From: Arthrobacter sp.
GTDB taxonomy: Bacteria > Actinomycetota > Actinomycetes > Actinomycetales > Micrococcaceae
Length of the DNA: 52,551 bases
Direction of reading: 5' to 3'
NCBI GenBank assembly: GCA_036390955.1
Contig: DASWAW010000325.1
Location: 1-52,551, forward strand
Positions 604-45,638 of the stretch are shown piece after piece (within the stretch, counting starts at the first letter, position 1; each line of letters starts with the position of its first letter). A model generated the notes under the pieces. The model was not told the origin of the DNA, searched no databases, and was given only the letters and a program-made list of their open reading frames with translations. The position numbers were made by a program, and so were the translations under genes.

Positions 604-1401
604 CTAACCGTTCGGGAATTCCTGGGCGTGCCAGTCGTCGACGACGCCATGGATGTCCATCATGCCGTTCCAGCCGGAATCCTGGTATGCCTTGGCGGCG
701 AAACCGGCAAAACGCTCGACGGTGTCCCTGTCCTCAAAGCCCTTGCAGCCCAGGACACTGGTGCCGTAGGCGTACGAAAAACGGTGGTGTGTGTCGTATT
801 GGGCCCGGTCTTCGGGGCTCATCGGGTCCGAGTCGTCGGGCCATTCGATGTCGTACCGCTCGTCGTCCTCACCGTCTTCGCTCCCGAGGAGGGCCGCCAG
901 CTCGCCTGCTGCGGCTTCGTCGGCAGCTTTCTTCTTGGCGGCCTCCGCCTTGTACCTGTCGATGCACTCGTTCGCCGGCGTGCCGGGAGTGAAGTCCAGG
1001 TCGCGTTCGATCGGCAGCCCCATCTGTCCGCGGAGTTCCTCGACGTCGCCGAGCGGAATATAGCCCCATTCCCCGCCGCCCATACCGAGGTCCGCATAGC
1101 CGAACGCCTCGTTTCCCGCGGGGTCGTATTCGGCGATGTACCAGTCCATGCCGCCCTGGAAATAGTGGGCCTGGATCGGTTTCTCCCCGATGGGACCGTT
1201 GTTATCCGTGGCGTACAGCTGCGGCCAGGTGGCCATCTCCGAGGCCGGCGGGTAGAAGTCGTGCCCGCGGCACTCCCGCTGCGTCTCCTCCGGGCGGATA
1301 CCACCCGCAGTGAGCGGCGCCACCTCATCGGAATGGGCGGTGGGCGCGAACTGGCCTCCGATGGGGATACCTGCGGGCTGGTGGACGGTATTCGCGGACA
1401 T
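604..1401 (-). CDS. DUF2958-like protein with N-terminal GIPIGGQFA peptide
   Basis: W-Y-I-A-E-Y-D...FGYADLG...EWGYI..L.E...IERDL.F pattern typical of DUF2958; AAGGAG RBS. Confidence 0.7.
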   Translation of the reverse strand: MSANTVHQPAGIPIGGQFAPTAHSDEVAPLTAGGIRPEETQRECRGHDFYPPASEMATWPQLYATDNNGPIGEKPIQAHYFQGGMDWYIAEYDPAGNEAFGYADLGMGGGEWGYIPLGDVEELRGQMGLPIERDLDFTPGTPANECIDRYKAEAAKKKAADEAAAGELAALLGSEDGEDDERYDIEWPDDSDPMSPEDRAQYDTHHRFSYAYGTSVLGCKGFEDRDTVERFAGFAAKAYQDSGWNGMMDIHGVVDDWHAQEFPNG

Positions 1402-1436
1402 GATGCTCCTTGCAGACGGTGTGCGTTCACTCCTTC

Positions 1437-1445
1437 TGTGTGCGG
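1437..1445 (-). promoter_or_regulatory. Class C motif CCGCACACA
   Basis: Recurrent motif upstream of 604..1401. Confidence 0.6.
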
Positions 1446-3361: not shown

Positions 3362-3389
3362 GGAGGGTGCTTTCTGCAGTGCGGGAGGG

Positions 3390-5722: not shown

Positions 5723-6918
5723 GATACATCGGCCCTTCGGTGCAGTCCCTTGCGGGGCTTGGATTCCATCGCGGGATCAAATCGGTCCACGAGCCTGCGG
5801 AGCGCTTTGGCTGCCTTGTCCCGCGACCGCTGGTGGAGCAGGGGTTCGCCCTGGTTCGTGGAGTAGGACAGGGCCTTGGAGCTCGGGATGGCAAGATCCA
5901 CCGGCGCCCCGAGCGTGGCCTCGACGTCCTGGATGGACAGTCCGCTGTCCCGGACGGCGTTGTTGACGACCAGGTGCCGGCCGTGGGAGGTCATACCCAG
6001 CTTGTCCAGAACATCGAGCTCCTTACGGGCCCCGCGGACGCTGGGAACGTCCATGCCGCACAGGATGACGGCGTCGGTCGCCGCCTCCAGCGCAGCCAGG
6101 GTGTGCTCTCCGAGGCCCGGGGCGGTGTCGATGACCACGTATTGGAATTCGCTGGCCAGCTGCTGAAGCACCCGGGTGATCTGCGCCCCGCTGATGCGGT
6201 TGCTGTCCGCCGGGTCCGAGGGGGCGCAGAGCGCGTAGATGGATGCCGGGTGGACGCTGAGGAGGGTCTTCAGGACCATGGTGTCCTGTGCTCCGGCGCC
6301 GGTGACCGCGTCTTTGAGTGTGTGTTCCGGGACGATCCGCAGGACGGTGTCCACGTCGCCGAACTGGATGTCCAGGTCCACCAGCACGGTCGACATCGGC
6401 GCAATCTTGCCCAGACCGACCGCGAGGTTGGTGGCGACGGTCGTCTTGCCGACACCGCCTTTGGCCGCGGTGACCACGATGACCTTTCCCCGGGATTCTT
6501 CCGGGGCGGCTTCCTGCGAGATGATCCGGCTCCGGCTGGCCGATGACAGGCAGGCCCGCTCCAGCAGGACGCGGATCATGTCGGGGTCAGCCTGGGGGCC
6601 CAGAATGTCACGGACACCGGCCCGCATCCCGGCGAGGGCCAGGTCCGGGTCGGTGTCCCGGACGAGGATGAGGCTGATTTCAGGATGCTGGACGTCAAAG
6701 ACTGCGGCCAGCCGGAGCACGGCTTCGAGGTCTGTATCGGGTCCGAACAGAATGACCTGCGGCGGCCCGTCGGTCATGGTCTTCAGGACAGCATCCGGGG
6801 TCTCAGGCAATGAGGTGTGAGGAAAGACCTGCATGGTTCCCGGCAGGCGGTCGGTGATCGCCGTCTTGACCCGCTGGATGAAGGCGGAGTCGGACGTGAG
6901 GAGAACGAAGCGGCTCAT
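5719..6918 (-). CDS. cpaE: CpaE/TadZ pilus localisation ATPase (receiver-like domain plus MinD-like domain)
   Basis: AKGGVGKTT deviant Walker A; DLDIQFGD. Confidence 0.88.
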   Translation of the reverse strand: MSRFVLLTSDSAFIQRVKTAITDRLPGTMQVFPHTSLPETPDAVLKTMTDGPPQVILFGPDTDLEAVLRLAAVFDVQHPEISLILVRDTDPDLALAGMRAGVRDILGPQADPDMIRVLLERACLSSASRSRIISQEAAPEESRGKVIVVTAAKGGVGKTTVATNLAVGLGKIAPMSTVLVDLDIQFGDVDTVLRIVPEHTLKDAVTGAGAQDTMVLKTLLSVHPASIYALCAPSDPADSNRISGAQITRVLQQLASEFQYVVIDTAPGLGEHTLAALEAATDAVILCGMDVPSVRGARKELDVLDKLGMTSHGRHLVVNNAVRDSGLSIQDVEATLGAPVDLAIPSSKALSYSTNQGEPLLHQRSRDKAAKALRRLVDRFDPAMESKPRKGLHRRADVS

Positions 6919-7655
6919 TTGTAGTAACCGTCCTTGGTGACGACGGATGTGCCGTCCCCGTTCGCTGCAGCTGGTTCCTTGGAGAGCCAGAGGGTGCCGT
7001 ACTCGGCGGCGAATACGATTTTCTCGGCCTCGTGGGCGGGCCGTGCCAGCGTGATGAGCATCGCCCCGGTCGGGACGGGCGGGCCCGGCGCCGTGGTTGC
7101 GGCAGCCTTTCCGGTCGGTTCCGCGGGCGCGCCCTGGACGCTGGTGACGAGGACCTTCTGGAAGGCGAGGTGTGTGGTGGGTGATCCCGGGCCTGCACCG
7201 TCCGTAAAGGAAACGAAGATGCCCACCGTGTCGCCTGCTATCAGCTGGCCACCTGCTACACGGTCCGGTCCAAGCTGCACTGTGACTTCCTGCAGCCCGG
7301 CCGGGACCGCGACCTTGCCCGGGATCAACAGCGAGGCCGGGTCGACCAGGCGGGCGTTCAGCAGCTGCTCCCCCTGGAGAAGCTTGGCGGAGGTCACCTT
7401 TCCATCGAGGGTGGACATGTCAGTGACGGCCCCTGGTGCGATGGCGGACACCGGCACGGATGCTGTTTTGGTGAACTTGGTGAGCTCCGCAGCGGGGGTG
7501 TTTGCCGGAACTTCCTTGTCGATCACGTAGATGTTCCGGACCTCCGCACCGTGCATCGCACGCTGGTCGGCGCCTTGGACGTAGGAGGTGACAGCGACAG
7601 TGCCGGTCACGGCGAGAAGGAGCGCGGCGGCGGCCCCGATAAGGCGGGTTTTCAA
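6915..7655 (-). CDS. cpaB: Flp pilus assembly protein CpaB/RcpC (SAF domain)
   Basis: N-terminal TM, SAF-like domain, GDTVGIFVS; position in the locus. Confidence 0.85.
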   Translation of the reverse strand: MKTRLIGAAAALLLAVTGTVAVTSYVQGADQRAMHGAEVRNIYVIDKEVPANTPAAELTKFTKTASVPVSAIAPGAVTDMSTLDGKVTSAKLLQGEQLLNARLVDPASLLIPGKVAVPAGLQEVTVQLGPDRVAGGQLIAGDTVGIFVSFTDGAGPGSPTTHLAFQKVLVTSVQGAPAEPTGKAAATTAPGPPVPTGAMLITLARPAHEAEKIVFAAEYGTLWLSKEPAAANGDGTSVVTKDGYYK

Positions 7656-7713
7656 GAGTCCGGTGCTCCTAAGAGGGTCCAGGCGGTAATGGTCGGTGGT
7701 GCGTGAAGGAATA

Positions 7714-7722
7714 TGTGTGCGG
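7714..7722 (-). promoter_or_regulatory. Class C motif inside the Tad cluster
   Basis: CCGCACACA upstream of cpaB. Confidence 0.55.
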
Positions 7723-7764
7723 CGTCGGGAGTAAACGTGCCCGCGGGGGTTCTCTGCACCCCGG

Positions 7765-8748
7765 CTATCCGATCAGGGTGACGATGTTCGCCCCGAGATC
7801 GGCTCCGGTTCCGGTGAAGTTGTCATCCAGGGAGACGAAGCTGACGAACTGTCCGATGATTCCCTTGCATGAGCCTTTGCAGGTGGCCCCGGTGTAGGCG
7901 TTGCTCTGATAGCTGGATCCCGGGTAGTTCCAGCCGAGAAGCTTGAAGGCGGCCCAGCCGGTGATCTTGTACCAGCCGCCGGCCCCGGCACCGCTCAAAT
8001 CGCTGTAGACCGGCAGCAGGACGGTCTTGTCGGCGTTGGCGGCAAGGACAGCGGCGCACCCTGTGGGGAGGCTGATGCCGGTGTCGCTGGTCATCATGGC
8101 GTTCAAGGCAACATCGACACTGGCGTTGCAGACCCCTGACGGAGTGGAGAGCCATCCAAACCCGCCGGGGAGGAGCTGCCCTGAAGGGCTGGTGCTTGAG
8201 CACGGGGTCCCGCCGGTGTCTCCGTGGCGGCTGATGACCTGGATGGCGCCGTTGAGCTTGAAGTTGCAGGGTGCGAACGTCAGGGGCAGGACTGCCGGCC
8301 CGCGGGCCGGGCTTCCCCATTGCGCGGTGGAGGTGGCGGCGACGGCGTCAGTTTTGATGCCGAGGACCGGTGCGAACGTGAGCGACAGGTAGCCGGCCCC
8401 GGTCTTGCCGTCCTTGGTGGCTGTCTGGACGGTGACGGCGTTCGAGCTGGGGTAGGTCAGGGACGAGACCCGGGAGGCCCCGTCGTTGGAGTTGGCGTTG
8501 GCGAAGTCCTGGGCGGTGGCCATCTTGAGTGCCGGGTTGGTGCAGTTCGTGGTCATACTGCATTCCTGGGCGATCGCGAGGGCAGCGGCGTCAGCGCCGG
8601 ACTGCAGCTGGGCCCGTTCGGAGTAGAGTGCGCCCGTGTCGATGGCGATGGCTGCGCATCCGATCAGGGCAACCATGGCGAAAGCGACGATCACGGTGAC
8701 GGCACCGCGTTCACCGTCGGGGACGGGTTTCCGTTTCACCCACCGCAC
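7765..8748 (-). CDS. TadG-like pseudopilin
   Basis: ERGAVTVIV...DTG...LQSGADAAALA Tad N-terminus. Confidence 0.85.
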   Translation of the reverse strand: MRWVKRKPVPDGERGAVTVIVAFAMVALIGCAAIAIDTGALYSERAQLQSGADAAALAIAQECSMTTNCTNPALKMATAQDFANANSNDGASRVSSLTYPSSNAVTVQTATKDGKTGAGYLSLTFAPVLGIKTDAVAATSTAQWGSPARGPAVLPLTFAPCNFKLNGAIQVISRHGDTGGTPCSSTSPSGQLLPGGFGWLSTPSGVCNASVDVALNAMMTSDTGISLPTGCAAVLAANADKTVLLPVYSDLSGAGAGGWYKITGWAAFKLLGWNYPGSSYQSNAYTGATCKGSCKGIIGQFVSFVSLDDNFTGTGADLGANIVTLIG

Positions 8749-9116
8749 CGCATCACGCTCTTTCCTGTAAGGTCCAGGCCGCGGCTAAGGAACCCTGTGA
8801 TGAAATCCAGATGGTAGGTGACAGTGACGGTGGTGTTGGCTCCGGTCGTGCAGGTTGCGGGGCTGATCTGTATCTGCGCATTTTTCAGCTGGGGGTTCAG
8901 CGACGGTGAGGCTGCAATGACAGCCGCCTGGGCCCCAGCGACGTTCTTCTGGATGGACATCACCCGCGCGCCTTCCCGTGCCGCGGCCGTGACAGAAATC
9001 TGGACGTTGTACGCCCGGCCGAACTCGACGATGCCGAGCATGAGGCCAATGAGGAGCGGGAGGATCAGGGCGAACTCTACGGCGACCGAACCGCGTTCGG
9101 ACCGGAACTTTTTCAT
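8736..9116 (-). CDS. tadE: TadE-like pseudopilin
   Basis: ERGSVAVEFALILP...AAREGAR. Confidence 0.9.
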   Translation of the reverse strand: MKKFRSERGSVAVEFALILPLLIGLMLGIVEFGRAYNVQISVTAAAREGARVMSIQKNVAGAQAAVIAASPSLNPQLKNAQIQISPATCTTGANTTVTVTYHLDFITGFLSRGLDLTGKSVMRCGG

Positions 9117-9196
9117 GTCAGGCTTCCTGTCCGAACGTAGATCTGCCCCGCGGCCGCCTTCGCAGCAACGGGGCAGATTTGTTCGAGGCGGGCCGC

Positions 9197-9403
9197 TTAG
9201 GCCGGCTTCGGGAGGCTGTTGGTCACGGAGGTGAACAGGTTGGCCAGCTGTGGGCCGAGGATGACCAGCGCGGCGATGATCGCTACCGCGATCAAACCGA
9301 CCAGCAGTCCGTATTCGACTGCCGTGGCACCCTTTTCTTCGCTGGCGAGGCGGTTCTTCGTGGTCTCGAGGAAGGAGAAGAAGGTAGCGAAGAGCGGATT
9401 CAT
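9197..9403 (-). CDS. flp: Flp family type IVb pilin
   Basis: EEKGATAVEYGLLVGLIA Flp motif. Confidence 0.93.
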   Translation of the reverse strand: MNPLFATFFSFLETTKNRLASEEKGATAVEYGLLVGLIAVAIIAALVILGPQLANLFTSVTNSLPKPA

Positions 9404-9634
9404 GAAAGGTCCTTACATTGATTGATTGCTGCAGTTCTGTTGTTCCCGGCCCGGGCCGGGAATGATTCGTGAGAATTCTGCGTACGAGGCCCGCCGCTTA
9501 CTCCCGCTGACGCTGTGCACGGCCCCGGCGATCCTTCTCACCGTGTCCGCAGTCGCGCTTAACCTTTAGAAGTCCGCTGCCGCGCAAAATCGGTGAGAAA
9601 TCCTGAAGCTTCTTTCTTCCGCATCGCTACAGGG

Positions 9635-10186
9635 TCAGGCTGCCAGGCGAAGACCGGACGTGTGGGCCGCCCGGTATGCCGCGGCCCAGGCTTCGATCGG
9701 GGCAATCAGGGTCGGCTCTCCCGGGCCGGCGAGCAGACCGACGCGCTCCAGCCGGTCCCAGGCACGGAAGCCGTGCGGGGCCTGGTCGGTCTTCACCCAT
9801 TTGAGGGCCTTGGAGACCATCGCGAACTCGGCGACCGGTTCCACCGGCACCGGCCAGCGGTCCGGGGCAACACAGGCGAGCCAGCGCACATGGCCGGCGC
9901 GGGCACCAAGGATCGGGAACATGCCCAGAGCGATTTCTTTGTCACCGTGGCCGGCCTGGACGACGGAACCGGATGCCGCGGCCCGGATTCCCGCGCCGGA
10001 GTCCTTCCATGCCTTCACCTGGATCGCGGCATCGGCCAGGACGTAGAGGTCGCCGATGTCTTCTGCCCGTCCGGCGCCCAGGTGCCGCATTGCTTTCGCG
10101 AGGGCGAACTCCGGGAGGAGGCCCACCATGACGGGGACCGCCTCGCGCTCGAAGCGGTCGCCTTTGTTCTTTGAAGTGTTAGCCAT
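9635..10186 (-). CDS. PD-(D/E)XK nuclease, phage Holliday-junction-resolvase-like
   Basis: NTSKNKGDRFERE...DIGD...IQVK pattern. Confidence 0.65.
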   Translation of the reverse strand: MANTSKNKGDRFEREAVPVMVGLLPEFALAKAMRHLGAGRAEDIGDLYVLADAAIQVKAWKDSGAGIRAAASGSVVQAGHGDKEIALGMFPILGARAGHVRWLACVAPDRWPVPVEPVAEFAMVSKALKWVKTDQAPHGFRAWDRLERVGLLAGPGEPTLIAPIEAWAAAYRAAHTSGLRLAA

Positions 10187-10194
10187 GCCAGTAA

Positions 10195-10217
10195 CTATGC
10201 GTAGACCTCACCGACGG
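10195..10217 (-). promoter_or_regulatory. Class A motif CCGTC-N11-CGCATAG
   Basis: CGCATA lies 9 nt before the ATG at 10186. Confidence 0.7.
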
Positions 10218-12175: not shown

Positions 12176-12184
12176 CCGCACACA
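12176..12184 (+). promoter_or_regulatory. Class C motif
   Basis: CGCACA lies 10 nt before ATG 12193. Confidence 0.6.
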
Positions 12185-12192
12185 TGCCGTTT

Positions 12193-12489
12193 ATGACCAC
12201 CAACGTGCAGCAGACCAGCGTTCTCGCCTACAAGAGCCTCACCCTGTCCGACCGGCAGACGGAGGTGCGCCGCGCGATCTCCTCGCTCGGCACCGCCTGC
12301 AACCAGCAGATCGCCGATTACCTGCACCTGCCTGTCAACCAGGTCACCGGCCGGGTCTTCGAACTGCGAGCCATGGGCGTCGTCATCTCATCCCACAAGG
12401 CCGTCTGGGCGCCGACCGGCAAGACCGTCATCTTCTGGCAGATTGCGCTCGGCACCCCGGCTGTCGCCACGGTGACCAGTCCCTCGTAG
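12193..12489 (+). CDS. Winged-HTH DNA-binding protein (phage-like)
   Basis: CNQQIADYLHLPVNQVTGRVFELRAMG HTH pattern. Confidence 0.65.
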   Translation: MTTNVQQTSVLAYKSLTLSDRQTEVRRAISSLGTACNQQIADYLHLPVNQVTGRVFELRAMGVVISSHKAVWAPTGKTVIFWQIALGTPAVATVTSPS

Positions 12490-12517
12490 CCTCGCCGGGT
12501 GAGAGCGGCCCGTCACG

Positions 12518-12526
12518 CCGCACACA
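12518..12526 (+). promoter_or_regulatory. Class C motif
   Basis: CGCACA lies 10 nt before ATG 12535. Confidence 0.55.
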
Positions 12527-17074: not shown

Positions 17075-17083
17075 CCGCACACA
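17075..17083 (+). promoter_or_regulatory. Class C motif
   Basis: Upstream of the 17150 CDS; overlaps hairpin 17048..17076. Confidence 0.5.
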
Positions 17084-17505: not shown

Positions 17506-17663
17506 CTGCAGAAAACGACACCCGTCGGGACATGCGACGCATAGAAAGACCGAGGCCAAAAGCGATTGCGGCCCCGACCGTTCCACCTCGCGTCAACTGC
17601 AGAAAACGACACCCGTCGGGACATGCGACGCATAGAAAGACCGAGGCCAAAAGCGATTGCGGC
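17506..17663 (+). repeat. Two identical 67-bp direct repeats (17506..17572, 17597..17663), each containing a class A motif
   Basis: CTGCAGAAAACGACACCCGTCGGGACATGCGACGCATAGAAAGACCGAGGCCAAAAGCGATTGCGGC x2, 91-bp period. Confidence 0.9.
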
Positions 17664-21951: not shown

Positions 21952-22653
21952 TCAGATCATCGAGTCGCGGCGCGCGTCGATGACTTCCTCGGAGACGATG
22001 TTCATGCTTTCGCCGAGGTTCTTCATGACCTGGAGCATCTCCTTCTCGGTGGTGTCCTCGAAGACCTTCTCCAGGGCGTGGTGTATCTGGTACAGCTTGT
22101 ACTTCGCCTGGATCTCTTCCACGGTCAGGGTTTCCGTGAACAGCTCGATCTCATGGTCCCGTACCTTGATGTTCTCGTCCGGGAACCGATGGGCGTGCGG
22201 TGCGTGGAAGAGCATCTGTGCCGCCCGAACCAGCTGCCGTGAGTCGTACGTTCCCAACCACATGGGTCGCTCGTTGGTGAGGTCCTCACGCACCTGGTTC
22301 TTGAACGGAGCCAGCTCCGCCTGGAATTTCTCCTCCCAGGCCTCAAGCTTGAAGCGTGGCTTCGGGTTCTCGACTACCCAGTTTGTCTTCCAGTCGTCAA
22401 CCCGCTGCTTGAAGCCGGCCTCGACTTCAGCGGTCCTTGTCTCGTGGTAGACCGACTCCGCCTGGCTGATGATCTCGTCCGGGATAACGATGTTGGACCA
22501 GAAGTTGAGGCAGTGCTCCGCCGTACTGGACGGTGAAGGCTTGAAGAACGACCCGTCGTTACGGTCGAACAGCTTCACGGGCGATTCGGCATGCGCCGCG
22601 GCGGCGAACTGACCGCCTTCCGGCACCCCGCCTGAGGTCCTGTTGTCGTTCAT
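21952..22653 (-). CDS. Hypothetical protein with N-terminal GVPEGGQFA peptide
   Basis: Codon bias; AAGGGAG upstream of ATG 22653. Confidence 0.7.
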   Translation of the reverse strand: MNDNRTSGGVPEGGQFAAAAHAESPVKLFDRNDGSFFKPSPSSTAEHCLNFWSNIVIPDEIISQAESVYHETRTAEVEAGFKQRVDDWKTNWVVENPKPRFKLEAWEEKFQAELAPFKNQVREDLTNERPMWLGTYDSRQLVRAAQMLFHAPHAHRFPDENIKVRDHEIELFTETLTVEEIQAKYKLYQIHHALEKVFEDTTEKEMLQVMKNLGESMNIVSEEVIDARRDSMI

Positions 22654-26701: not shown

Positions 26702-27130
26702 TTAGGCGGCGAGGCCTTCCAGCACGCGCTGGACGGTGCGGTCCTCGTGGAGCCGGGCACGGTTCGTGTCCGAGATGTCCCACCCGTGGGCGGCGACGGC
26801 GCGGACGAACGGGTTCCGGTCGTGGGAGGCCCGGTCGGCGGTGCCGGCGTAGCCGGTGTGGGCCGCAGCCAGGCGCACCGAGGTGTCCTGGGACGGTGCG
26901 GCAAGCCGCTCCAGGACGTCATCCGTGATCGCCGGGCTGGAGGTCAGCTCGGCGAGGACGTATGCGTCGTGGCTGTGGGAAAGGTCGCGGATCTGGTCCG
27001 GGGTGGCGTGGTCCAGATTCGGGAAGGAGGGCTGGCGGCCAAGGCTCAGGTCACCTTCCGTGTGGATGCTGCCGGTGAAGCGGCCAGCACCCTTGATTCC
27101 CTTGAGGACTCGGAGCTGCTTATCTGCCAT
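26702..27130 (-). CDS. Small helical-repeat (LRV/HEAT-like) protein with a variant N-terminal peptide
   Basis: LERLA...D.SVRLAAA and NPFVRAVAA repeats; GAGAGGA RBS. Confidence 0.65.
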   Translation of the reverse strand: MADKQLRVLKGIKGAGRFTGSIHTEGDLSLGRQPSFPNLDHATPDQIRDLSHSHDAYVLAELTSSPAITDDVLERLAAPSQDTSVRLAAAHTGYAGTADRASHDRNPFVRAVAAHGWDISDTNRARLHEDRTVQRVLEGLAA

Positions 27131-27146: not shown

Positions 27147-28244
27147 TTAGGAGTTGTGCTTGTTGTTGGCGAAGGCGACCGCGGAGGCCCACATGATGTC
27201 GGCCTTCTCGGGCTTGTCGGCGCCGATGCGCTCGAGCAGGCCGATGACGCTTTCGCGCTGGTGGATGTCGATCGTGCCGAACGGTGCGAACAGGGCCTCG
27301 GTGGTGGGGCTGTCCTTGCCGTCTGACCAGGCCTTGCAGGCAGCCATGACGCCGCCCTCCTGGGCCTCCATGAGCTTGCGGATCTCGGTGACCTTGCGCT
27401 GGGAGATCGTGCCCGGCAGTGCCAGCGGAAGCTCGGCACGCTCGGCGATGGCGTTCCAGGCGTAGCGCTTGGCTTCGGCCTTGTTCGCTGCACCAGTGGT
27501 TTCCAGTGCCGTGAAGGCCCGGTCCATGTAGGAGTCCGGCTCGATGTAGTGGCCGGAGTTTTCCGGGTTCACCAGGCTCGCGCCGAGGGTGGATTCGACG
27601 CCACCGTCTTCACCGAAGCTGCGGTCCAGCGAGGTGTCCACGGTGTGCGGGGTGCGGAAATCCTTGGACGGCTTGTGGCGCGGGTCGTGCCACTCGTCGA
27701 GAACGATCTGTGCCACGGTGTCTTCCTCACGCTGGGTCAGCGAACGGCCGAGCAGGCCCTGTGCTTCATCGCGCTTGGCGACGAAGAGGCGGTAGGCACG
27801 GCGGTCTTCGGCGCGGAACTTGTTAGCCGTGGCCCGGACGGTGACGTTGGCAGTCACCGAGTTCACCAGTTGGCGGAAGTCCGTGATGGGACCACCCTTT
27901 TTGACGCGCTCCAGGATCTGGAGGATGGCTTCCTGGGCGATGTCGTCCACGTCTTTGTCGTTGGACTTGCCGGCCTGGTTGTAATACGCCTGGTGGTACA
28001 CAGCCGAGCTGTGGGCTACTTCGACGAGCCGCTCCGCCGAGGTGTACTTCGCCAGGAGGGAGTTCATGTCCGCGCCTATCAGGTCCTCGACCATGACGGA
28101 GCCTGCGTGCAGCTGGGTCTGACCCAGGACGACGTCGGATTCGGAGTGGCGGTTCGCGGCGAATTCGCCGCCCGAGGGCACGCCTGCCTCGACACGGTTC
28201 GGTGCGAAGGAGGTGCCGGCTGCGGAAGTTTTCGAGTTGCTCAT
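27147..28244 (-). CDS. Divergent sigma70-family-like protein
   Basis: DVDDIAQEAILQILE (region 2-like), LGRSLTQREE (region 3.1-like), SLDRSFGEDGGVESTLGASL (region 3.2-like). Confidence 0.6.
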   Translation of the reverse strand: MSNSKTSAAGTSFAPNRVEAGVPSGGEFAANRHSESDVVLGQTQLHAGSVMVEDLIGADMNSLLAKYTSAERLVEVAHSSAVYHQAYYNQAGKSNDKDVDDIAQEAILQILERVKKGGPITDFRQLVNSVTANVTVRATANKFRAEDRRAYRLFVAKRDEAQGLLGRSLTQREEDTVAQIVLDEWHDPRHKPSKDFRTPHTVDTSLDRSFGEDGGVESTLGASLVNPENSGHYIEPDSYMDRAFTALETTGAANKAEAKRYAWNAIAERAELPLALPGTISQRKVTEIRKLMEAQEGGVMAACKAWSDGKDSPTTEALFAPFGTIDIHQRESVIGLLERIGADKPEKADIMWASAVAFANNKHNS

Positions 28245-28251
28245 GCCCTCT

Positions 28252-28260
28252 TGTGTGCGG
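28252..28260 (-). promoter_or_regulatory. Class C motif
   Basis: CGCACA lies 9 nt before ATG 28244. Confidence 0.6.
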
Positions 28261-28420
28261 CTGAATCAAAAAACGCGCAGCGGCCGCCGGGTCAGTTTCA
28301 GGCGGGCTCGATCAGGAGCTTTCCGCGGCAGCAGATGGCTGGATTTTTGGGGCTCGCCGAGGGCCGCCAGCCGGTCGGGGTGTCCCCAATCCTGGGGGCC
28401 GGTCGGGCCCCTTTCAGGGG

Positions 28421-28547
28421 TGGTCCTTTTGGGGTGGTCCACCCTGGTCCTTTTGGTGGTCCTTTTGCTGGTCCACAGGTGGTCCATCCCCGGTCCATGC
28501 GGTGGTCCTTTGAGTGGTCCATCGCTGGTCCTTTACTGTCGGGGACC
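28421..28547. repeat. Array of 10 GGTCC units (10-14 bp spacing) plus one GGACC
   Basis: GGTCC at 28422, 28436, 28446, 28458, 28470, 28481, 28492, 28504, 28516, 28527. Confidence 0.9.
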
Positions 28548-28605: not shown

Positions 28606-29346
28606 ATGAGCACACGTATCGAGCCCGACGGACCGGCGATGATGCTGCTGTCCCTGGGGCTGGTGGCGGTACTGGCGATCGCCAGTTTCACCCTCTCGTT
28701 CCTGGGTCTCATCCAAGCGGCCGTGTGGGCCGGGATCCCCGTTGAGCTCCGGTGGCTCGTGCCGGTCGTGGTGGACTCGACGATCCTCGTTTATGCCGTT
28801 GCGGCCAGCGTACAAAGGGCCAGAGGGGAATCGACGACGCTTTCCTGGGTCGCGGTCGGGTTCTTCACGGCGGTGTCGGTGAGCGCCAACGCAGCGCACG
28901 TCCTTGCCCCCGGCGGAGTCATGGCGGCGCTAGACGGGACGGTCATCTTCGGGGCGATCCTGGCGGCCATCATGCCGATCAGCCTGTTCTTCGCAACGGA
29001 GACGACAGTGAAGCTCGCAGTGGCCCCGGTGTATGGCTCGGTTGCGCAGCGGCGCCGGCGGGCAGCGAAGAATCTGGTCCACACGGGAGAAAAGGACCAA
29101 CAAAAGGACCAGTGGTCCTTTTCAAATGGACCACTAAAAGGACCAGCAAAAGGACCACTTGTGGACCACCAAAAGGACCACCTGCGGACCACCCTGAAAA
29201 CCCGTCCGGAAGTCGACCCGAAAACGATCCGGGAACTGGCCGATCAGGACCTGAGCCAACGGGCGATCGCGCAGCGGCTGGGGGTCTCCAAAACGACGGT
29301 GGCACGGGTGCTCTCAGGGGCTGCCGAGGCGGCTCCGGCGCGCTGA
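28606..29346 (+). CDS. DUF2637-like membrane protein with C-terminal HTH
   Basis: SFTLSF..L...WLVPVVVD...SANAAH four-TM pattern; LSQRAIAQRLGVSKTTVARVL HTH. Confidence 0.8.
   Translation: MSTRIEPDGPAMMLLSLGLVAVLAIASFTLSFLGLIQAAVWAGIPVELRWLVPVVVDSTILVYAVAASVQRARGESTTLSWVAVGFFTAVSVSANAAHVLAPGGVMAALDGTVIFGAILAAIMPISLFFATETTVKLAVAPVYGSVAQRRRRAAKNLVHTGEKDQQKDQWSFSNGPLKGPAKGPLVDHQKDHLRTTLKTRPEVDPKTIRELADQDLSQRAIAQRLGVSKTTVARVLSGAAEAAPAR
29076..29190. repeat. Intragenic array of 8 GGACC plus 2 GGTCC, inverted relative to 28421..28547
   Basis: GGACC at 29094, 29106, 29128, 29140, 29152, 29163, 29175, 29186. Confidence 0.9.
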
Positions 29347-30067: not shown

Positions 30068-33000
30068 TCATGCGGCCAGCGCGTAACCGCGGGTGTCGAG
30101 GATTTCCAGGACGATGTGCTCGATGATGTCGCCCAGGGACTTGAAGTTCTTCTCCATCTCGAGGTCTTCCTCGGTGATGGCTTCGTAGGCGTTCGCCTGT
30201 TCATTCAGGACCGAGGTCATGGTGGTGACGTTGTTGTCGGCGCCCGGCATAAGGACGTTCAGGTCCTTGGCCTTGTTCCGCAGGATCGCGCGCATGTGGG
30301 CGTCCAGGGTGTTGGTCGCCAGCAGGGTCGTGACCATGCAGATGTTCTCCTGGCCGATGCGGTTGCAGTTGTGGACGGCCGCCGATCCGACGACGTAAGA
30401 CTCGTCGCCTTCTACGGACAGGTCCCAGAGCCGCTCCTCGCGCCGAGCGTACCTAGAGGTGACCATAGAGACGCGCCTCCAAATCCAGGGACCTTCATGA
30501 GCGTCGTCCGTGTATTCAGTCACGTAGGAATCCCTCGCGGTCATTGCGTTGACTGTTGACGTTGCTTCCTTGAAGTGGCCTTCGATGGTCCTGGTCCCCG
30601 TGCGGTAACCGAGAGCGGCCGCAATGAGGCCTAGTTGCCCGCTCAGCGACTCCGACACGGTGGTCCACGACAGCACAACTTTTTCACCGTTGTCCGACAA
30701 TTTAGCGTGCCCGTCTCCGGCCATGTAGCCGAGGAATACCTGCTCAAGTTGTGGCTTGGACAGGTCAAATACCCATGCGGGGAAGCGCTTGTTCTGGGCA
30801 CGGTGGCCGAACATCTGTAGAAACCACGCTGCAAGGTCTTGGGAAAAGATCCGCATCTCGATGCCGTTGTGATTGTGCTTGTAGATCGTGAACTTGAAGC
30901 CGAACGTTCGCTGAAGGTATTCACCGTGGGCTCGGAGCACATGCTCCTCGTTCCGGTGCCCCGAGATGGAGACGAAAGCGCCCTTTGATTCATCGACGGT
31001 GGAGAATCCTTCCGCCACGTACAAGCCGCAGAACGACAAGAACTCTGGCGTCAGGTCAACCGTCGCCGGCATCGGATTGTATCGACCATTGGGCCTGCGC
31101 TCCGTCAATATGGGCAACGGAGTTTTGGCTCCGAAATCGAGACGGTGCTGACGCTTCAGCGCTGTGTAGTGCTCCTGGCACAGTCCGCGGGCAATAACGT
31201 TCTTTGATCCGCAGACCTTGCAGGAAGACCATGCCTTGAGCTCCGCGTCTGTCCAGCGGCGGCATGAGTCGGGAAAGACGACACTCTGAACGTCAAGGCC
31301 GCTGAGCCGCATTTTCGGCGTGGCCATACTGTCCCCGGGCAACACTGTTGACGCGAAGGCCCACTCCTCGATGCCATTGGCGCGACGGACCCATACCTCG
31401 TGATCGTGAGTTACTGCCAGGGGGTCCCGCTGGCCCATGAAGTTGACCTCGGTGATGACTTTCCGTGCACCTACGTTGTCGCGCGAGCCGCGAGACCAAA
31501 CGTCGGTAACAGGGCGCCAGTTGCCCTCGTGAGTGAGAACCGTGTCCCCGATGGAGATCGCCTCGATGGGAACGGGCCCGCGGTCAGTCTGGACAGGCTG
31601 CCCTTCGACCACGCACCGGTCCTCTGCTTGACTTATGTTCGCCGGCGTCCAGTCCGTTTCGATGAACAAAACGTCGGAGCTGGCCGTCAGGGTGATGCCG
31701 AAGCCGGCGGCGCCGATGGAGCAGAAGATGACACCGATCTCCCCGTTCTGGAGCCGGTCGGCGACGAGCTGGCGCTTGTGCTGGGCCACTCCCCCGTCAA
31801 TGAACCCGGTGTCGGCGATGCCGGCCTTTTCGACGGCTTCGACCAGGGCCTGCATGACGGGCTGGTTGTGGACCCAGACGGTGAGCGGCCGGGTGTAGAC
31901 CTTTTTGCCGTTGCGGATCTCGGTGGTTGCTTCCATCCAGTCGGAGATGATCTCGATGGCGGCCGGTACCTTGGCGACGCCGGCGGCGGAGCGCAGCGGG
32001 GTGATGAGGTCCACACGGGTCCGGGCGAACAGCTTGATCGCCTCGTTGTCGATCCGGGCGCCGAGCTCGCGCTGCTCGTCTATCCACTCCGTGACTTTCT
32101 CGTACAGGGTGTCGTGCGCGGCCTTGAAGCCCTTGGGGTCGATGTCGACATACCTGGTGGTGCGCAGCTTGGGCGGCAGCTGTTTGAGGACGTCGGCTTT
32201 GTTCCGACGCACCCAGCACTGGCGGGTGAGGGTCTGCTCCAGCTCGGGAAGCATCTTGCGGTTGGGCAGGAACGCACCGAAGTGGTTCTGGCTGGTGTAT
32301 CGCTCCATGAAGTTGGACGCACCGCCGAACACCGGATCCAGAAGGCCGCCGATGGCGAGCATGTTCGCGCCCTCGGCCGGGTTCTGCAGGAACGGGGTAC
32401 CTGTCATCGGCACGCACATCCCATTGATGGAGGATGCCAGGTTGCGGTTCGCGGTGGCGCGCTTCCCGGCCCAGGTCCGGGACCGGTGTACCTCATCGAA
32501 GAGGGCAACGTTCGGGTCCCAGGCGATCAGTTCGGCCAGGAGCTCGGGACGGGATCCGAGCAGGGAGTCGGCGACTACGATGACGCCGGCGTTCGGGAAC
32601 GGCGGAACCTTCTTGCCGGCCCGGATCGGGACAATGTAGTCCGGGAAGTCCGGCTTCTTAACAGCCTTCTTCGGCTTGGCTTTGGACTTGCGCGTGGTCG
32701 CGATCGGCACGACGACGTCGGTGACGACGGGCTGGATCCGCTTCAGGCCCGGGCCCAGACCGGCGTAGGTTTCCCGGCACCAGTTCTCCACGACCAGGGG
32801 CGGAACGACTATGACGGTGCGCCGGGCACGGACAATTGCTGCCGCCGCGAGGGCTTGCCGGGTCTTCCCCAGGCCCGGACTGTCGTTGAGGGCGCGGTGT
32901 CCGCCGGCGATGGCGTAGGCGCCGGCCAGCTGGAACGGGTACAGGGCCAGGCCGAACCATTTGGGCAGGTAGCCGGTGTGGGAGGCGACGATGTCGATGA

Positions 33001-33607
33001 GTTCCTGGGCGCGCGGGGACAGCTCGTGCTGGAAGTCCCCGTCGACGCCGGTGGAGCAGGCGAGCTCGCGGGCGGCGGCCCGGACGCTCTCGGGGATGTC
33101 TTCGGCCTGGCGGGACGCGACCGCATCGGCGATCATGGCGTCGTCCATCTGCATGCCCTTTTTGGGCTGGCCGTCGTTGGTGATCATGTCCGAGAGCTGG
33201 ACTTCGAAGCGCTGCAGGTTCTTGTCCCAGACGGCGCCGGGGCCCAGGATGGCGGCGAGCCGTTCGTAGCCTGCCATGCGGGGCCGGACGAAAACCATGT
33301 GCGGGAACTTGGCGGAGCGCTTCAGCATCGGACGCCACAGGGTTTCGAGGGAGTCCAGGCCGGCGAGGTCACCCTCCGCTTCGGAGAAGTCGACGGGAAT
33401 CCTGGCGGCGGCGAAGAACTTGTCCGGGTGGGTGCCGGTGCCGGTGATGTACCAGGTCTTCTCGGACCGGTCGAAGCGGCGGCCGGGCAGGCCCTTGACC
33501 CAGTCCTGCGCGGACTTGCCGTTGGGGAGGGTCGCACCCCAGCCGAATTCAAAGCGCAGTTCAGGGTTGCGGAACGTCCCGGTAAGGACGGCGGTGAGAG
33601 GGGCCAT
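30068..33607 (-). CDS. SNF2-family helicase containing an intein
   Basis: DSPGLGKT, DEVH, MTGTP, QAEDR|CNRIGQ motif VI split by the intein. Confidence 0.9.
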   Translation of the reverse strand: MAPLTAVLTGTFRNPELRFEFGWGATLPNGKSAQDWVKGLPGRRFDRSEKTWYITGTGTHPDKFFAAARIPVDFSEAEGDLAGLDSLETLWRPMLKRSAKFPHMVFVRPRMAGYERLAAILGPGAVWDKNLQRFEVQLSDMITNDGQPKKGMQMDDAMIADAVASRQAEDIPESVRAAARELACSTGVDGDFQHELSPRAQELIDIVASHTGYLPKWFGLALYPFQLAGAYAIAGGHRALNDSPGLGKTRQALAAAAIVRARRTVIVVPPLVVENWCRETYAGLGPGLKRIQPVVTDVVVPIATTRKSKAKPKKAVKKPDFPDYIVPIRAGKKVPPFPNAGVIVVADSLLGSRPELLAELIAWDPNVALFDEVHRSRTWAGKRATANRNLASSINGMCVPMTGTPFLQNPAEGANMLAIGGLLDPVFGGASNFMERYTSQNHFGAFLPNRKMLPELEQTLTRQCWVRRNKADVLKQLPPKLRTTRYVDIDPKGFKAAHDTLYEKVTEWIDEQRELGARIDNEAIKLFARTRVDLITPLRSAAGVAKVPAAIEIISDWMEATTEIRNGKKVYTRPLTVWVHNQPVMQALVEAVEKAGIADTGFIDGGVAQHKRQLVADRLQNGEIGVIFCSIGAAGFGITLTASSDVLFIETDWTPANISQAEDRCVVEGQPVQTDRGPVPIEAISIGDTVLTHEGNWRPVTDVWSRGSRDNVGARKVITEVNFMGQRDPLAVTHDHEVWVRRANGIEEWAFASTVLPGDSMATPKMRLSGLDVQSVVFPDSCRRWTDAELKAWSSCKVCGSKNVIARGLCQEHYTALKRQHRLDFGAKTPLPILTERRPNGRYNPMPATVDLTPEFLSFCGLYVAEGFSTVDESKGAFVSISGHRNEEHVLRAHGEYLQRTFGFKFTIYKHNHNGIEMRIFSQDLAAWFLQMFGHRAQNKRFPAWVFDLSKPQLEQVFLGYMAGDGHAKLSDNGEKVVLSWTTVSESLSGQLGLIAAALGYRTGTRTIEGHFKEATSTVNAMTARDSYVTEYTDDAHEGPWIWRRVSMVTSRYARREERLWDLSVEGDESYVVGSAAVHNCNRIGQENICMVTTLLATNTLDAHMRAILRNKAKDLNVLMPGADNNVTTMTSVLNEQANAYEAITEEDLEMEKNFKSLGDIIEHIVLEILDTRGYALAA
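30368..31615 (-). mobile_element. Intein (416 aa) with LAGLIDADG homing endonuclease
   Basis: Starts CVVEGQPV; THDH block B; GLYVAEG and LGYMAGDG; ends VHN followed by Cys; lower GC. Confidence 0.92.
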
Positions 33608-33614
33608 GGTCTCT

Positions 33615-33637
33615 CTATGCGCCGGAGGCCCCGACGG
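33615..33637 (-). promoter_or_regulatory. Class A motif
   Basis: CGCATA lies 8 nt before ATG 33607. Confidence 0.7.
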
Positions 33638-34203: not shown

Positions 34204-34923
34204 ATGACTGAAACAGCGGCGCGCAGCGTCCTCATCACCGGCGGGAACAGGGGCATCGGCCTTGCCATCGCGAAGTCGTTCCTGGCCAACGGGGACAAGG
34301 TCGCGGTCACCTACCGCACCGAGTCTGAGCTGCCGGAGGGCATCATGGGCGTCCAGTCGGACGTCACCGACTCGGCGTCCGTTGACGCGGCGTTCAAGCT
34401 CGTCGAGGCCGCCCACGGCCCCGTCCAGGTGCTCGTCCCGAATGCCGGGATCACGAAGGACACCCTGCTGATGCGGATGTCCGAAGAGGACTTCACCTCG
34501 GTCATCGACACGAACCTGACCGGCGCGTTCCGGGTCATCCAGCGGGCGACCCAAGGCATGATGAAACTGCGCAAGGGCAGGATCGTGCTGATCTCATCCG
34601 TCTCCGGGATCTACGGCGCCCCGGGCCAGGTCAACTACTCGGCGTCGAAGGCCGGCCTGATCGGGATCGCCCGGTCCATCACCCGCGAACTGGGCTCCCG
34701 CGGCATCACCGCGAACGTCATCATGCCCGGCGTGGTGCTCACCGACATGTTCAACGAAGTCTCCGATGAGATGAAGCAGCACTACCTGGACGGGATCCCC
34801 GCCGGCCGGTTCGCCGAGCCCTCAGAGATCGCCGATGTCGTGCGCTGGCTGGCCAGTGATGAGGCCTCGTACATCTCCGGGGCACTCATCCCGGTCGACG
34901 GCGGCGGGTCCATGGGCCACTAG
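34204..34923 (+). CDS. fabG: 3-oxoacyl-ACP reductase (FabG/MabA-like SDR)
   Basis: TGGNRGIG, NAGITKDTLLMRM, YSASK. Confidence 0.9.
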   Translation: MTETAARSVLITGGNRGIGLAIAKSFLANGDKVAVTYRTESELPEGIMGVQSDVTDSASVDAAFKLVEAAHGPVQVLVPNAGITKDTLLMRMSEEDFTSVIDTNLTGAFRVIQRATQGMMKLRKGRIVLISSVSGIYGAPGQVNYSASKAGLIGIARSITRELGSRGITANVIMPGVVLTDMFNEVSDEMKQHYLDGIPAGRFAEPSEIADVVRWLASDEASYISGALIPVDGGGSMGH

Positions 34924-41587: not shown

Positions 41588-41596
41588 TGTGTGCGG
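41588..41596 (-). promoter_or_regulatory. Class C motif
   Basis: Upstream of nrdH. Confidence 0.55.
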
Positions 41597-44005: not shown

Positions 44006-44449
44006 CTACGCAGTCTTGGGTTTGCGCAGCTTCAGGAAGACTGAGCCGGCAGGGGACGCGGTGGTCTTGTCCGCCTGGTCCGGCGGGGCTTTCTTGGTGC
44101 GGCGGAAACGGTTGATGATGCCGCCGTCGAGTTCGGTGACCCATTGGCGGTGCAGTGCCCACGCTTCGCCGACGGTCAGGACCAGCGGGACGGAGTCCGA
44201 GTAGGTGGTCAGGAAGAGCAGTCCAAGGGCGGCCCAGCGGTACCAGCGTCGGTAGCCGCGCGGGAGCAGGATCATGGTGGCCAGGGCCGGGAGGCCGAGC
44301 AGGACGGGGAACAGCCAGCCGACCGTGTCGGGACTGAACGGCACGGCCATGACGGTCTGGATGTGGGTAGCGGAGACGGCGATGACAACGGCCCAGCCGA
44401 AGGGCTGTTTCCAGTTGAAGGAACGGATGCGTCCCAGGATGGTTTTCAT
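44006..44449 (-). CDS. Hypothetical membrane protein
   Basis: About three TM segments; ATGA overlap with the upstream gene. Confidence 0.6.
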   Translation of the reverse strand: MKTILGRIRSFNWKQPFGWAVVIAVSATHIQTVMAVPFSPDTVGWLFPVLLGLPALATMILLPRGYRRWYRWAALGLLFLTTYSDSVPLVLTVGEAWALHRQWVTELDGGIINRFRRTKKAPPDQADKTTASPAGSVFLKLRKPKTA

Positions 44450-45621
44450 GCGGCAGGGGCCTTTACTTCAACGTCGGTGAGGTTGCGGATCAGCTGATCC
44501 AGCTGGGCGTACATGGCGTGTTCGGTCAGGCCGAGGCGCTGGCCCTTGTGGGCGAGGGCGCGGGCGAACACGTCCGGGGCTTTCATGACCGCGATGCGGC
44601 GGCCGGCGATGCGTTCGGCCCGGTATTCGGCGCCGGTGGTGTCGAAGGAGGAGTACGCCTCGAATTCCAGGGCGATGAACGCCTCGCAGACGTCTTCGGC
44701 GACACGGGACCAGTTGCGTTCCGGGCCCATGGCACGGACGGCGCCGCGGAAGGAGCGCAGCACGGTGCGGGAGGGCCGGACCCGGTCGGTGAGGACTGAT
44801 TCAACCAGGGCGGACGCGACCATCGGGGCGGCGGTGGCGATGGCTTCGAGGTTGTTGTAGGCGAACTCGTCCCAGAGGGTGAGGAAACCGGGGTCCACCG
44901 GGTCGGTGACCGGGTCCCCGGAAATGATCCGGTACATCTCGGTGACGGAGCGGTGCGCGATGGACGAGTCCAGGGCCAGCAGTGCTGAGAGCCGGCGGCG
45001 TTCGTGCAGGCGGGGCCGGTCCAGTGCCGGGATGCCGTAGGCGTGGGTCAGGGATGCGGCCTGGGCTTCGAGCCGGGAGTTGTCGCGCAGGTGGCGGCTG
45101 CGGGCGCGGAGCCAGTCGGCGGCAACCAGCATGCGCTGGCCGGAGTCGGAGGCTTCAATGACCTCGGGGGTGTCATCTTCAGACCGGGTGTGGAAGACGT
45201 AGCTGGCATGGGTGCGGTGCCGGACCTCGTCGTTTTCCATCGTCTTGATCGGTTCGACGAGTTCGTACTTGCCGTTCCGGGTCCGGAGGTTGCGTTCGAT
45301 GGATTTTCGGGCCGCGCGGAGCATCTGCCGGGCCCAGCCGGTCGCCGAGGCGCCGTCCAGTCCGCGGTCCAGGTCGTAGCCGCCGGAGGTTTCCTGCATC
45401 ATCTTGGTGACGACGAGTTCTTCCATTTCGGCGGTGATGTCCAGGAGCTGCTGCCGGTCAATGAGCGGCTTCTCCCCCGCTACTGTGGCAGCGATGCCGG
45501 AGCGGTGAAGGGCTTCTGCGAGAGCCTTGCGGGTGTCGAACGGGGAGAGGTCTCCGTCAGCGAATTGCTGAAGGACCGCCCGGCATTCTGTATCGGAGTC
45601 GGAGGTCTGAAGTGTTTGCAC
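44446..45621 (-). CDS. Hypothetical protein, possible second divergent sigma-like factor
   Basis: YDLDRG...SATGWARQMLR resembles sigma region 2.3 (FDPxRG..F.T.A.WWIR); GTG start. Confidence 0.5.
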   Translation of the reverse strand: MQTLQTSDSDTECRAVLQQFADGDLSPFDTRKALAEALHRSGIAATVAGEKPLIDRQQLLDITAEMEELVVTKMMQETSGGYDLDRGLDGASATGWARQMLRAARKSIERNLRTRNGKYELVEPIKTMENDEVRHRTHASYVFHTRSEDDTPEVIEASDSGQRMLVAADWLRARSRHLRDNSRLEAQAASLTHAYGIPALDRPRLHERRRLSALLALDSSIAHRSVTEMYRIISGDPVTDPVDPGFLTLWDEFAYNNLEAIATAAPMVASALVESVLTDRVRPSRTVLRSFRGAVRAMGPERNWSRVAEDVCEAFIALEFEAYSSFDTTGAEYRAERIAGRRIAVMKAPDVFARALAHKGQRLGLTEHAMYAQLDQLIRNLTDVEVKAPAA

Positions 45622-45629
45622 GAACCTTA

Positions 45630-45638
45630 TGTGTGCGG
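45630..45638 (-). promoter_or_regulatory. Class C motif
   Basis: CGCACA lies 10 nt before GTG 45621. Confidence 0.6.

What the first reader, a model, noticed from the sequence alone, without database searches (positions are those of the whole stretch)
27147..28244. Cryptic divergent sigma70-like protein carrying the shared N-terminal peptide
Seen: DVDDIAQEAILQILE, EAQGLLGRSLTQREEDTVAQ and TSLDRSFGEDGGVESTLGASL occur in the order expected for sigma regions 2, 3.1 (LGRxPTxEEIA) and 3.2 (SLDxPxGxDxxxTLGD). Region 4 is not clearly recognisable, which would fit a -10-only promoter. Inference: this is the master activator of the element.
Basis: partly seen in the sequence, partly recalled or inferred. 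Interest (0 to 1): 0.85.

Follow-up and report, generated by a model that had tools for sequence, protein, structure and literature searches.

The report
Megaplasmid's private tagged sigma factor
Giant plasmids of Arthrobacter and related actinobacteria carry an unannotated, very divergent relative of sigma factors, a second likely one, and their own promoter-like words, so they likely run a private gene-expression programme on the host RNA polymerase.

Summary
The ORF (27147-28244, minus strand, 365 aa) is real and the three motifs are in the stated order. Profile and fold searches support a sigma-70 domain 2 (residues 52-141); domain 3 is weaker. Region 4 appears replaced rather than simply lost: a confidently modelled 130-residue helical domain with no fold match sits there. 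The family lies on 375-608 kb plasmids and related elements of Micrococcales. The gene is preceded by GCCGCACACA, 7 nt before ATG. This word is element-wide (57 copies on pACHL01, control 0) and behaves like a -10 element for leaderless transcripts; related elements carry their own variants. There are three promoter classes: one before the tagged genes (little upstream information) and two before untagged genes, both with -35-like words. A second sigma-like gene (44446-45621) travels with the first. 'Sigma-like' is supported, '-10-only' holds for one class, and 'the master activator' is not shown. Which factor reads which class is open; weak covariation leans to this protein reading untagged-gene promoters, which would close a two-factor loop. 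No RNA or binding data were obtained.

The parts
27147..28244 (-). sigma-70-like gene, 365 aa (family 1); pACHL01 orthologue Achl_4419
28252..28261 (-). class I promoter-like word GCCGCACACA, 7 nt before the ATG (predicted leaderless transcript)
28140..28196 (-). shared N-terminal tag, residues 17-35 (R-x-P-x-G-x-P-x-G-G-Q-F-A...E); low-confidence region in the model
27822..28091 (-). sigma domain 2, residues 52-141, with D-x-x-Q-E at 101-105
27675..27812 (-). sigma domain 3-like helices, about residues 145-190 (LGRxLTxxE)
27564..27647 (-). acidic low-confidence linker, residues 200-227, region 3.2-like (SLD)
   Evidence: the region 3.2 label rests on a recalled motif
27150..27563 (-). C-terminal helical domain in place of region 4; no fold match
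26702..27130 (-). next gene, tagged, Shine-Dalgarno-led, 16 nt downstream; likely same operon
44446..45621 (-). second sigma-like gene (family 2), 391 aa, untagged, GTG start
45630..45638 (-). class II-type word CCGCACACA(T), 8 nt before the family-2 start
604..1445 (-). tagged DUF2958 gene with class I word at 1437-1445 and a short leader
21952..22653 (-). tagged gene, Shine-Dalgarno-led, end of the transfer-like gene run
12176..12526 (+). two class II sites (12176, 12518); others at 17075 (+), 7714, 30011, 34023, 38527, 51401 (-); a further non-T site at 41588 (-)
33615..33621 (-). class III word CGCATAG (CCGTSG about 11 nt upstream) before the SNF2 helicase; also at 10195, 39699, 41070, 43874, 52513 (-) and 12684, 17538, 17629 (+), before DNA-metabolism genes

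Best explanation
The gene encodes a very divergent sigma-70-family protein of a giant plasmid-like element, which likely binds the host RNA polymerase and likely directs it to promoter words found on the element. Shown: a domain 2 with the conserved D-x-x-Q-E motif, a weaker domain 3, a new C-terminal domain where region 4 would be, an N-terminal tag shared with about 40 element proteins, three classes of element-specific words about 7-8 nt before start codons, and a second sigma-like gene on the same elements. Inferred: domain 2 docks on the beta-prime clamp helices; domains 2-3 read a CCGC-containing composite -10 element; many transcripts are leaderless. Most likely wiring (inferred, about 45%): this tagged factor reads the promoters of untagged genes, among them the second factor, and the second factor reads the promoters of the tagged genes, among them this gene. 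The alternative is that it reads its own class (about 35%). Such a loop needs priming in a new host; the tag would then mark proteins handed over with the DNA (speculative).
For: Domain 2: 53 of 142 members match Pfam Sigma70_r2 (best E 5.9e-7); PDB profile hits 14 of 17 sigma, SigE E 1.2e-5; VIA Z 7.7 to ShbA (rmsd 3.5, 79 aligned) and SigH (2.9, 74), 9 of the top 10 rows sigma; profile-profile 95%, E 4e-8; the protein's three NCBIfam hits are all sigma-70. Domain 3: FliA collinear over profile positions 61-160, E 0.01; Atlas rows 2-10 all sigma clusters starting at residues 56-60. Promoters: CCGCACACA 12 in the window vs 0.33 expected; 166 in the assembly vs 14 reversed, ATG 7-8 nt later at 85; 57 on pACHL01 and 18 on D40, control 0. 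Of 40 tagged genes, 21 have the word and no Shine-Dalgarno, 18 the reverse, 1 neither; 37 of 40 class II sites without a start codon have a purine at the predicted +1. In 9 of 15 element stretches an unbiased scan recovered the word that precedes the family gene. Tag by class: 23 of 30 vs 1 of 58, p 5e-14. Loop: residues 120-155 track the untagged word (Mantel 0.61, p 0.006), not the tagged word (0.22, p 0.22).
Against: No expression, start-site or binding data. The protein alone has no Pfam hit, NCBIfam scores are far below cut-off, Foldseek gives no hit at E<=0.001 and Z 7.7 is within the range common to helical bundles. Sigma70_r3 matches only 3 of 142. Covariation does not separate the two factors: family 2 tracks the untagged word as well (0.67) and, whole, the tagged word (0.69); 9 related elements, words chosen after looking; without two near-duplicates the family-1 value is 0.54, p 0.06. 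Five of six genomes with 7-19 words were tested and have neither family. G567 has family 1 but no word and no family 2. 6 of 15 stretches gave no matching word. Three classes but two candidate factors; no third was found. Transfer is unproven: no TrwC relaxase in 3 of 3 complete plasmids, 8 of 8 typed non-mobilizable.
Confidence: 0.7

Rival explanations
1. Simple autoregulation: it is a sigma factor that reads the class I word in front of its own gene and of the other tagged genes; family 2 reads the rest.
For: Its own gene has the tagged-class word in every element where both were read. Class I has little upstream information, which fits a factor without region 4. SigN of pBS32 activates its own expression (PMC6751061, section 7). 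The sigma3 stretch correlates with the class I word (0.44, p 0.03).
Against: Residues 120-155 do not track the class I word (0.22). D40 and G660 share the stretch HRRHEDS but differ in class I word while both use CGCATA before untagged genes.
Confidence: 0.35
2. One reader for all classes: this protein is the master factor, reading the shared CCGC core, with family 2 or other proteins acting as activators at the -35-like words.
For: Tagged and untagged words share a core within several elements (assembly, G643, G105, G289). Family 2 is only weakly sigma-like (52%, E 1.4e-4; no PDB, Pfam or NCBIfam hit).
Against: In G663 the two words are CCGTCAAC and CGCATAGG; on D40 CCGCACACA and CGCATAG; tagged and untagged word distances are not correlated (0.27, p 0.16).
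Confidence: 0.15
3. It is a sigma-derived inhibitor or decoy that occupies the core polymerase (own or recipient's) without starting transcription; the words are read by family 2 or another protein.
For: The best-conserved part of domain 2 is the D-x-x-Q-E stretch; region 2.3-2.4 is variable and this protein has no aromatic residue at position 126, where 88 of 142 members do. No region 4.
Against: Domain 3 and the SLD linker are conserved across the family; element-specific promoter words accompany it.
Confidence: 0.12
4. The words are translation signals in mRNA rather than promoters, and the protein has nothing to do with them.
For: They lie at Shine-Dalgarno distance from the start and exclude Shine-Dalgarno sequences.
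Against: 73 of 166 sites have no ATG 6-9 nt later, and many of these are followed by a leader and a Shine-Dalgarno-led gene; purine at +1 in 37 of 40; spaced upstream words; one copy precedes a tRNA-like sequence on contig C529 (read by eye).
Confidence: 0.05

Closest known systems
SigN (ZpdN) of Bacillus subtilis plasmid pBS32 (PMC6751061; abstract and section 7 read)
   Same: Plasmid-encoded divergent sigma factor that uses host polymerase and has a plasmid regulon that includes DNA-metabolism genes.
   Different: SigN has mapped -35 and -10 words, SigA/LexA-controlled promoters for priming, and is described as weakly ECF-like. Here there is a domain 3, a new C-terminal domain, a tag, a partner family and three promoter classes. 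Homology to SigN was not tested.
Group 3 sigma factors, FliA/sigma28/WhiG type (PMC12784957, passages read)
   Same: Domain 2 runs collinearly into domain 3 (residues 96-175, E 0.01). The sigma28 -10 is (-15)GCCGATAA(-8); the words here start GCCG and end near -8.
   Different: No region 4 match; the strongest domain-2 scores are to ECF factors; the GCCG likeness may be chance.
ECF (group 4) sigma factors: SigE, SigH, ShbA, SigR
   Same: Best sequence and fold matches of domain 2.
   Different: ECF factors lack domain 3 and have region 4 (recalled); this family is the reverse; no anti-sigma neighbour was seen.
Leaderless SigA promoters of actinobacteria (PMC3898074, passages read)
   Same: -10 motif 7-12 bp before the start site, purine preferred at +1, leaderless transcripts abundant.
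   Different: The host word is TANNNT; host contigs here give TAGGCT/TAGACT-type words, not CCGCACACA.
pMP7017 of Bifidobacterium breve (PMC10832533, passages read)
   Same: Actinobacterial megaplasmid with a plasmid-specific motif before 19 promoters.
   Different: Its promoters are canonical TTGACA/TATAAT, the motif is read as a transcription-factor site, and no plasmid sigma appears in the passages seen.

Membership tests
sigma-70 family | domain 2 by sequence and fold | tested here: met
   below curated cut-offs for this protein alone
sigma-70 family | region 2.2 core-binding residues D-x-x-Q-E (role recalled) | tested here: met
   D101 125/142, Q104 113/142, E/D105 122/142
sigma-70 family | region 4 helix-turn-helix for the -35 element | tested here: inconclusive
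   C-terminal model pLDDT 94; best Z 3.4, no sigma among 50 rows; no Foldseek hit; Sigma70_r4 not among the 25 of 52 families shown. Not found, but the tool does not allow exclusion.
sigma-70 family | binds core RNA polymerase and starts promoter-specific transcription | not testable with these tools
   complex prediction unavailable; no RNA run listed
group 3 (FliA/WhiG type) | domain 3 after domain 2 | tested here: inconclusive
   3 of 142 match Sigma70_r3 (best 0.0024); FliA E 0.01; helices 145-183 modelled
ECF (group 4) | only domains 2 and 4, short linker | tested here: not met
   conserved LGRxLTxxE helices and a 130-residue C-terminal domain
group 1/2 (RpoD-like) | region 1.2 and canonical region 2.3 (YATWWIRQ) | tested here: not met
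   absent from the family; present in the separate helicase-RpoD fusion on C621

The most novel reading that the evidence does not exclude
A family of giant actinobacterial elements runs a closed two-sigma circuit on the host polymerase: a tagged factor without region 4 is handed to the recipient cell as protein along with dozens of tagged proteins, switches on the untagged genes including a second sigma-like factor, and that factor switches on the tagged genes for the next transfer. Both tag and promoter words diverge between elements, which would insulate them from each other.
Probability: 0.2. Interest if true: 0.93.

Novelty: new variant of a known kind. Interest (0 to 1): 0.76.

Why it matters
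It would be a sigma-70 architecture with region 4 replaced by an unknown domain, and it comes with its candidate promoters, so it can be tested at once in a cultured, sequenced strain (Pseudarthrobacter chlorophenolicus A6, pACHL01). It would explain how 400-600 kb plasmids made mostly of hypothetical genes are expressed, or kept silent, apart from the host programme. Natural sigma/promoter variants (CCGCACACA, CCGTCAAC, CCGGACACT, GGCCGCAGT, CGCATAG) could give a recognition code and orthogonal expression tools for actinobacteria. The tag defines a co-regulated protein set of unknown destination.

Tried and rejected
Phage origin: no tblastn match in 50,697 phage records, no PHROG hit for either factor, no Terminase_6N in 3 of 3 complete plasmids (one terminase family only). 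Flagellar export as the route for tagged proteins: D40 has a full flagellar cluster with its own annotated sigma beside family 2, but FlhA was not found in pACHL01 or G663, so it is treated as cargo. Third sigma: none among 2,690 frames of 33 element contigs. Fold of the C-terminal domain: no match; likeness to the family-2 C-terminal half E 0.05-0.12, not significant. Function of tagged proteins: 36 of 39 have no Pfam hit. RNA: no RNA holder listed. Complex prediction with beta-prime: tool not available, nothing folded. Viral and metagenome contig scans were not run. Literature: nine searches, listings only, showed no paper on this family, the words or the tag; the library lacks most subscription papers, 'GGQF'-type terms were swamped by unrelated hits, and supplements were not searched.

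Full report
Observation. The ORF at 27147-28244 (-) encodes 365 aa, and the quoted motifs are at residues 98-112, 160-179 and 204-224. A word-index search gives 55 proteins including itself, 28-82% identical, all named ones 'hypothetical'. A profile search finds 526 clusters at E<=0.001 and 447 at <=1e-10 (the weak end may include tag-only hits). Of 72,556 plasmids, 8 match, all 375-608 kb, from Arthrobacter-group and Curtobacterium hosts; no phage record matches. The window has the same gene order as pACHL01 337-378 kb. Full-length members were found in 5 of 301 genomes of the family, 8 of 401 of the order, 4 of 351 of a second family and only the own genome among 351 of the class; one Aeromicrobium chromosome has two. 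G131, unpublished, enters only the tallies.

Is it a sigma? The protein alone has no Pfam hit and three weak NCBIfam hits, all sigma-70. 28 of 49 close and 53 of 142 diverse members match Sigma70_r2, and 3 of 142 match r3. The deep profile finds 17 PDB sequences, 14 of them sigma factors: SigE E 1.2e-5, FliA over positions 61-160 E 0.01, SigA over 60-198 E 0.9. The model (pLDDT 78, pTM 0.41) has a low-confidence N-terminus, a helical domain at 52-141, helices at 145-183, a low-confidence acidic linker at 200-227 and a C-terminal domain. VIA ranks sigma domain 2 first (Z 7.7; 9 of the top 10 rows), though Z below 8 is common for helical bundles; Foldseek gives no hit at E<=0.001, with mostly sigma chains on top. 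Against the assembly's own 11 domain-2 sequences the profile scores 95%, E 4e-8. D101, Q104 and E/D105 are conserved in 125, 113 and 122 of 142; that these bind beta-prime is recalled. The C-terminal domain folded alone is confident (pLDDT 94, pTM 0.87) but has no match (best Z 3.4, no sigma in 50 rows). So domain 2 is well supported, domain 3 moderately, and region 4 appears replaced.

The tag. An HMM of residues 14-41 finds 40 ORF starts at >=14 bits in the assembly, clustered on a few contigs. 36 of 39 of the other tagged proteins have no Pfam domain. 94 of 142 family members carry it; distant elements use other versions, and the family gene carries its element's version.

The promoters. 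GCCGCACACA lies 7 nt before the ATG of this gene and 7-8 nt before its orthologues on pACHL01 and D40. CCGCACACA occurs 12 times in the window (0.33 expected, maximum 2 in 100 simulated sequences) and 166 times in the assembly against 14 for the reversed word, with ATG 7 or 8 nt later at 85 sites. 141 sites lie on 29 contigs (354 kb; contigs chosen by having two or more sites) and 25 in the other 3.46 Mb. pACHL01 has 57 and D40 18, controls 0. Among 301 genomes the three with close family members have 85, 83 and 41 copies; the two with distant members have 0; six others have 7-19. An unbiased scan of 15 element stretches recovered the word before the family gene in 9, each element with its own variant (for example G643 CCGCACATCT, G105 CCGGACACT, G663 CCGTCAAC, G289 GGCCACAGT); 6 gave no matching word, four of them stretches of 42 kb or less. 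The word behaves like a -10 element: it and Shine-Dalgarno sequences exclude each other before tagged genes (21, 18 and 1 of 40), and 37 of 40 class II sites without a start codon have a purine at the predicted +1, often followed by a leader and a Shine-Dalgarno-led gene. The geometry matches leaderless mycobacterial promoters (PMC3898074, passages) and the sigma28 element (-15)GCCGATAA(-8) (PMC12784957, passages).

Three classes. Class I (next base not T, 7 nt spacing, little upstream information) precedes tagged genes: 23 of 30, against 1 of 58 for class II (next base T, 8 nt, CGGKGA 14-15 nt upstream; Fisher p 5e-14; 56 fully bipartite sites). Class III (CCGTSG, about 11 nt, CGCATAG) precedes DNA-metabolism genes in the window (10 sites, 1.5 expected) and dominates the Curtobacterium plasmids (75 and 89 sites, controls 2 and 1; 6 on pACHL01). 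'-10-only' therefore holds for class I alone.

A second factor. The ORF at 44446-45621 (391 aa) is on the same 8 plasmids, in 7 of 18 stretches scanned and in 4 of 5 further genomes. It is untagged and has an untagged-class word before it in the assembly, pACHL01, G660 and G289. Its N-terminal domain scores 52%, E 1.4e-4, against domain 2; an Atlas neighbour at 0.95 is named sigma-70; PDB, Pfam and NCBIfam give nothing relevant. It is a candidate, not a proven sigma.

Who reads what. Distance tests do not link this protein to its own word (0.22, p 0.18 over 13 elements; family 2 0.44, p 0.03; the family-1 sigma3 stretch 0.44, p 0.03). Over 9 elements its residues 120-155 track the untagged word (0.61, p 0.006) and not the tagged one (0.22), but family 2 tracks the untagged word too (0.67), and without two near-duplicates the value is 0.54, p 0.06. 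These tests are post hoc and on related elements, so they give a lean only. I put the cross loop at 45%, autoregulation at 35% and the rest at 20%.

Against. Five genomes with 7-19 words have neither family; two inspected carry element cargo with words and tags, read as remnants, which is an inference. G567 has family 1 alone and no word. Transfer is inferred from a TcpF/VirB4-like ATPase (E 4e-7) and a CHAP protein; no TrwC relaxase was found. No RNA run was listed and no complex was folded, so expression and polymerase binding remain open.

Known relatives and novelty. SigN of pBS32 is the functional precedent for a plasmid sigma with a plasmid regulon (PMC6751061, abstract and section 7); pMP7017 uses canonical promoters (PMC10832533, passages). 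Nine searches (listings only) showed no paper on this family. Three unchecked notes of this scan describe what appear to be the same kind of factor or the class I word in other genomes; they are not independent support. The lines shown do not mention the second factor or the three classes. Verdict: a real, unannotated sigma-70 variant with candidate promoters in hand; one of probably two regulators, not shown to be the master. New variant of a known kind; interest 0.76.

Noticed in passing
window 44446-45621 (-): Second, untagged family with a weakly sigma2-like N-terminal domain (SAxGWARQ); same 8 plasmids as the finding's gene; unannotated.
   Followed up: partly
window, ten CGCATAG sites: Third promoter-like class before nuclease, DinG, methylase, SNF2, dnaE and SSB-like genes; dominant on Curtobacterium plasmids (75 and 89 sites, controls 2 and 1) but 6 on pACHL01.
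   Followed up: partly
G000 contigs C36, C130, C655, C100, C125: Arrays of tagged genes; 36 of 39 tagged proteins have no Pfam domain; one is a tRNA nucleotidyltransferase, one DUF2958, one DUF7007.
   Followed up: partly
G289, G105, G494, G663 stretches: The tag itself is element-specific (MSKTGGGRGTNQ, RTxDGKY, RKADGKFG, HPRxxxGKF) and the family gene carries its own element's version.
   Followed up: partly
L176 (G000 C621) 7131-9923; L001 39933 onward: Helicase fused to an RpoD-like sigma domain; preceded by a class II word on pACHL01.
   Followed up: partly
L164 12166-41703: Complete flagellar cluster with its own sigma on Curtobacterium plasmid D40, next to the family-2 gene; flhA/flhB also on pS16.
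   Followed up: partly
L136-L145 (G271:C3, G046:C1): Element cargo with both promoter classes and tags but neither factor found: remnants or dependent elements.
   Followed up: partly
window 30068-33607 (-): SNF2 helicase with Hint and LAGLIDADG domains (intein); the pACHL01 orthologue gene is about 1.2 kb shorter.
   Followed up: no
window 17510-17660 (+): Direct repeat 91 nt apart that duplicates a class III site upstream of the SSB-like gene.
   Followed up: no
window 28370-28545 and 29100-29260: Runs of short GGTGGTCC/GGACC repeats between the gene and DUF2637-HTH and inside that gene; seen by eye.
   Followed up: no
window 2480-9403 (-) and 34204-34923 (+): Tad/Flp pilus-like gene cluster and a fabG-like gene, read by eye from translations; fabG is at the same place on pACHL01.
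   Followed up: no
G000 C529: A class II word precedes a tRNA-like sequence (read by eye).
   Followed up: no
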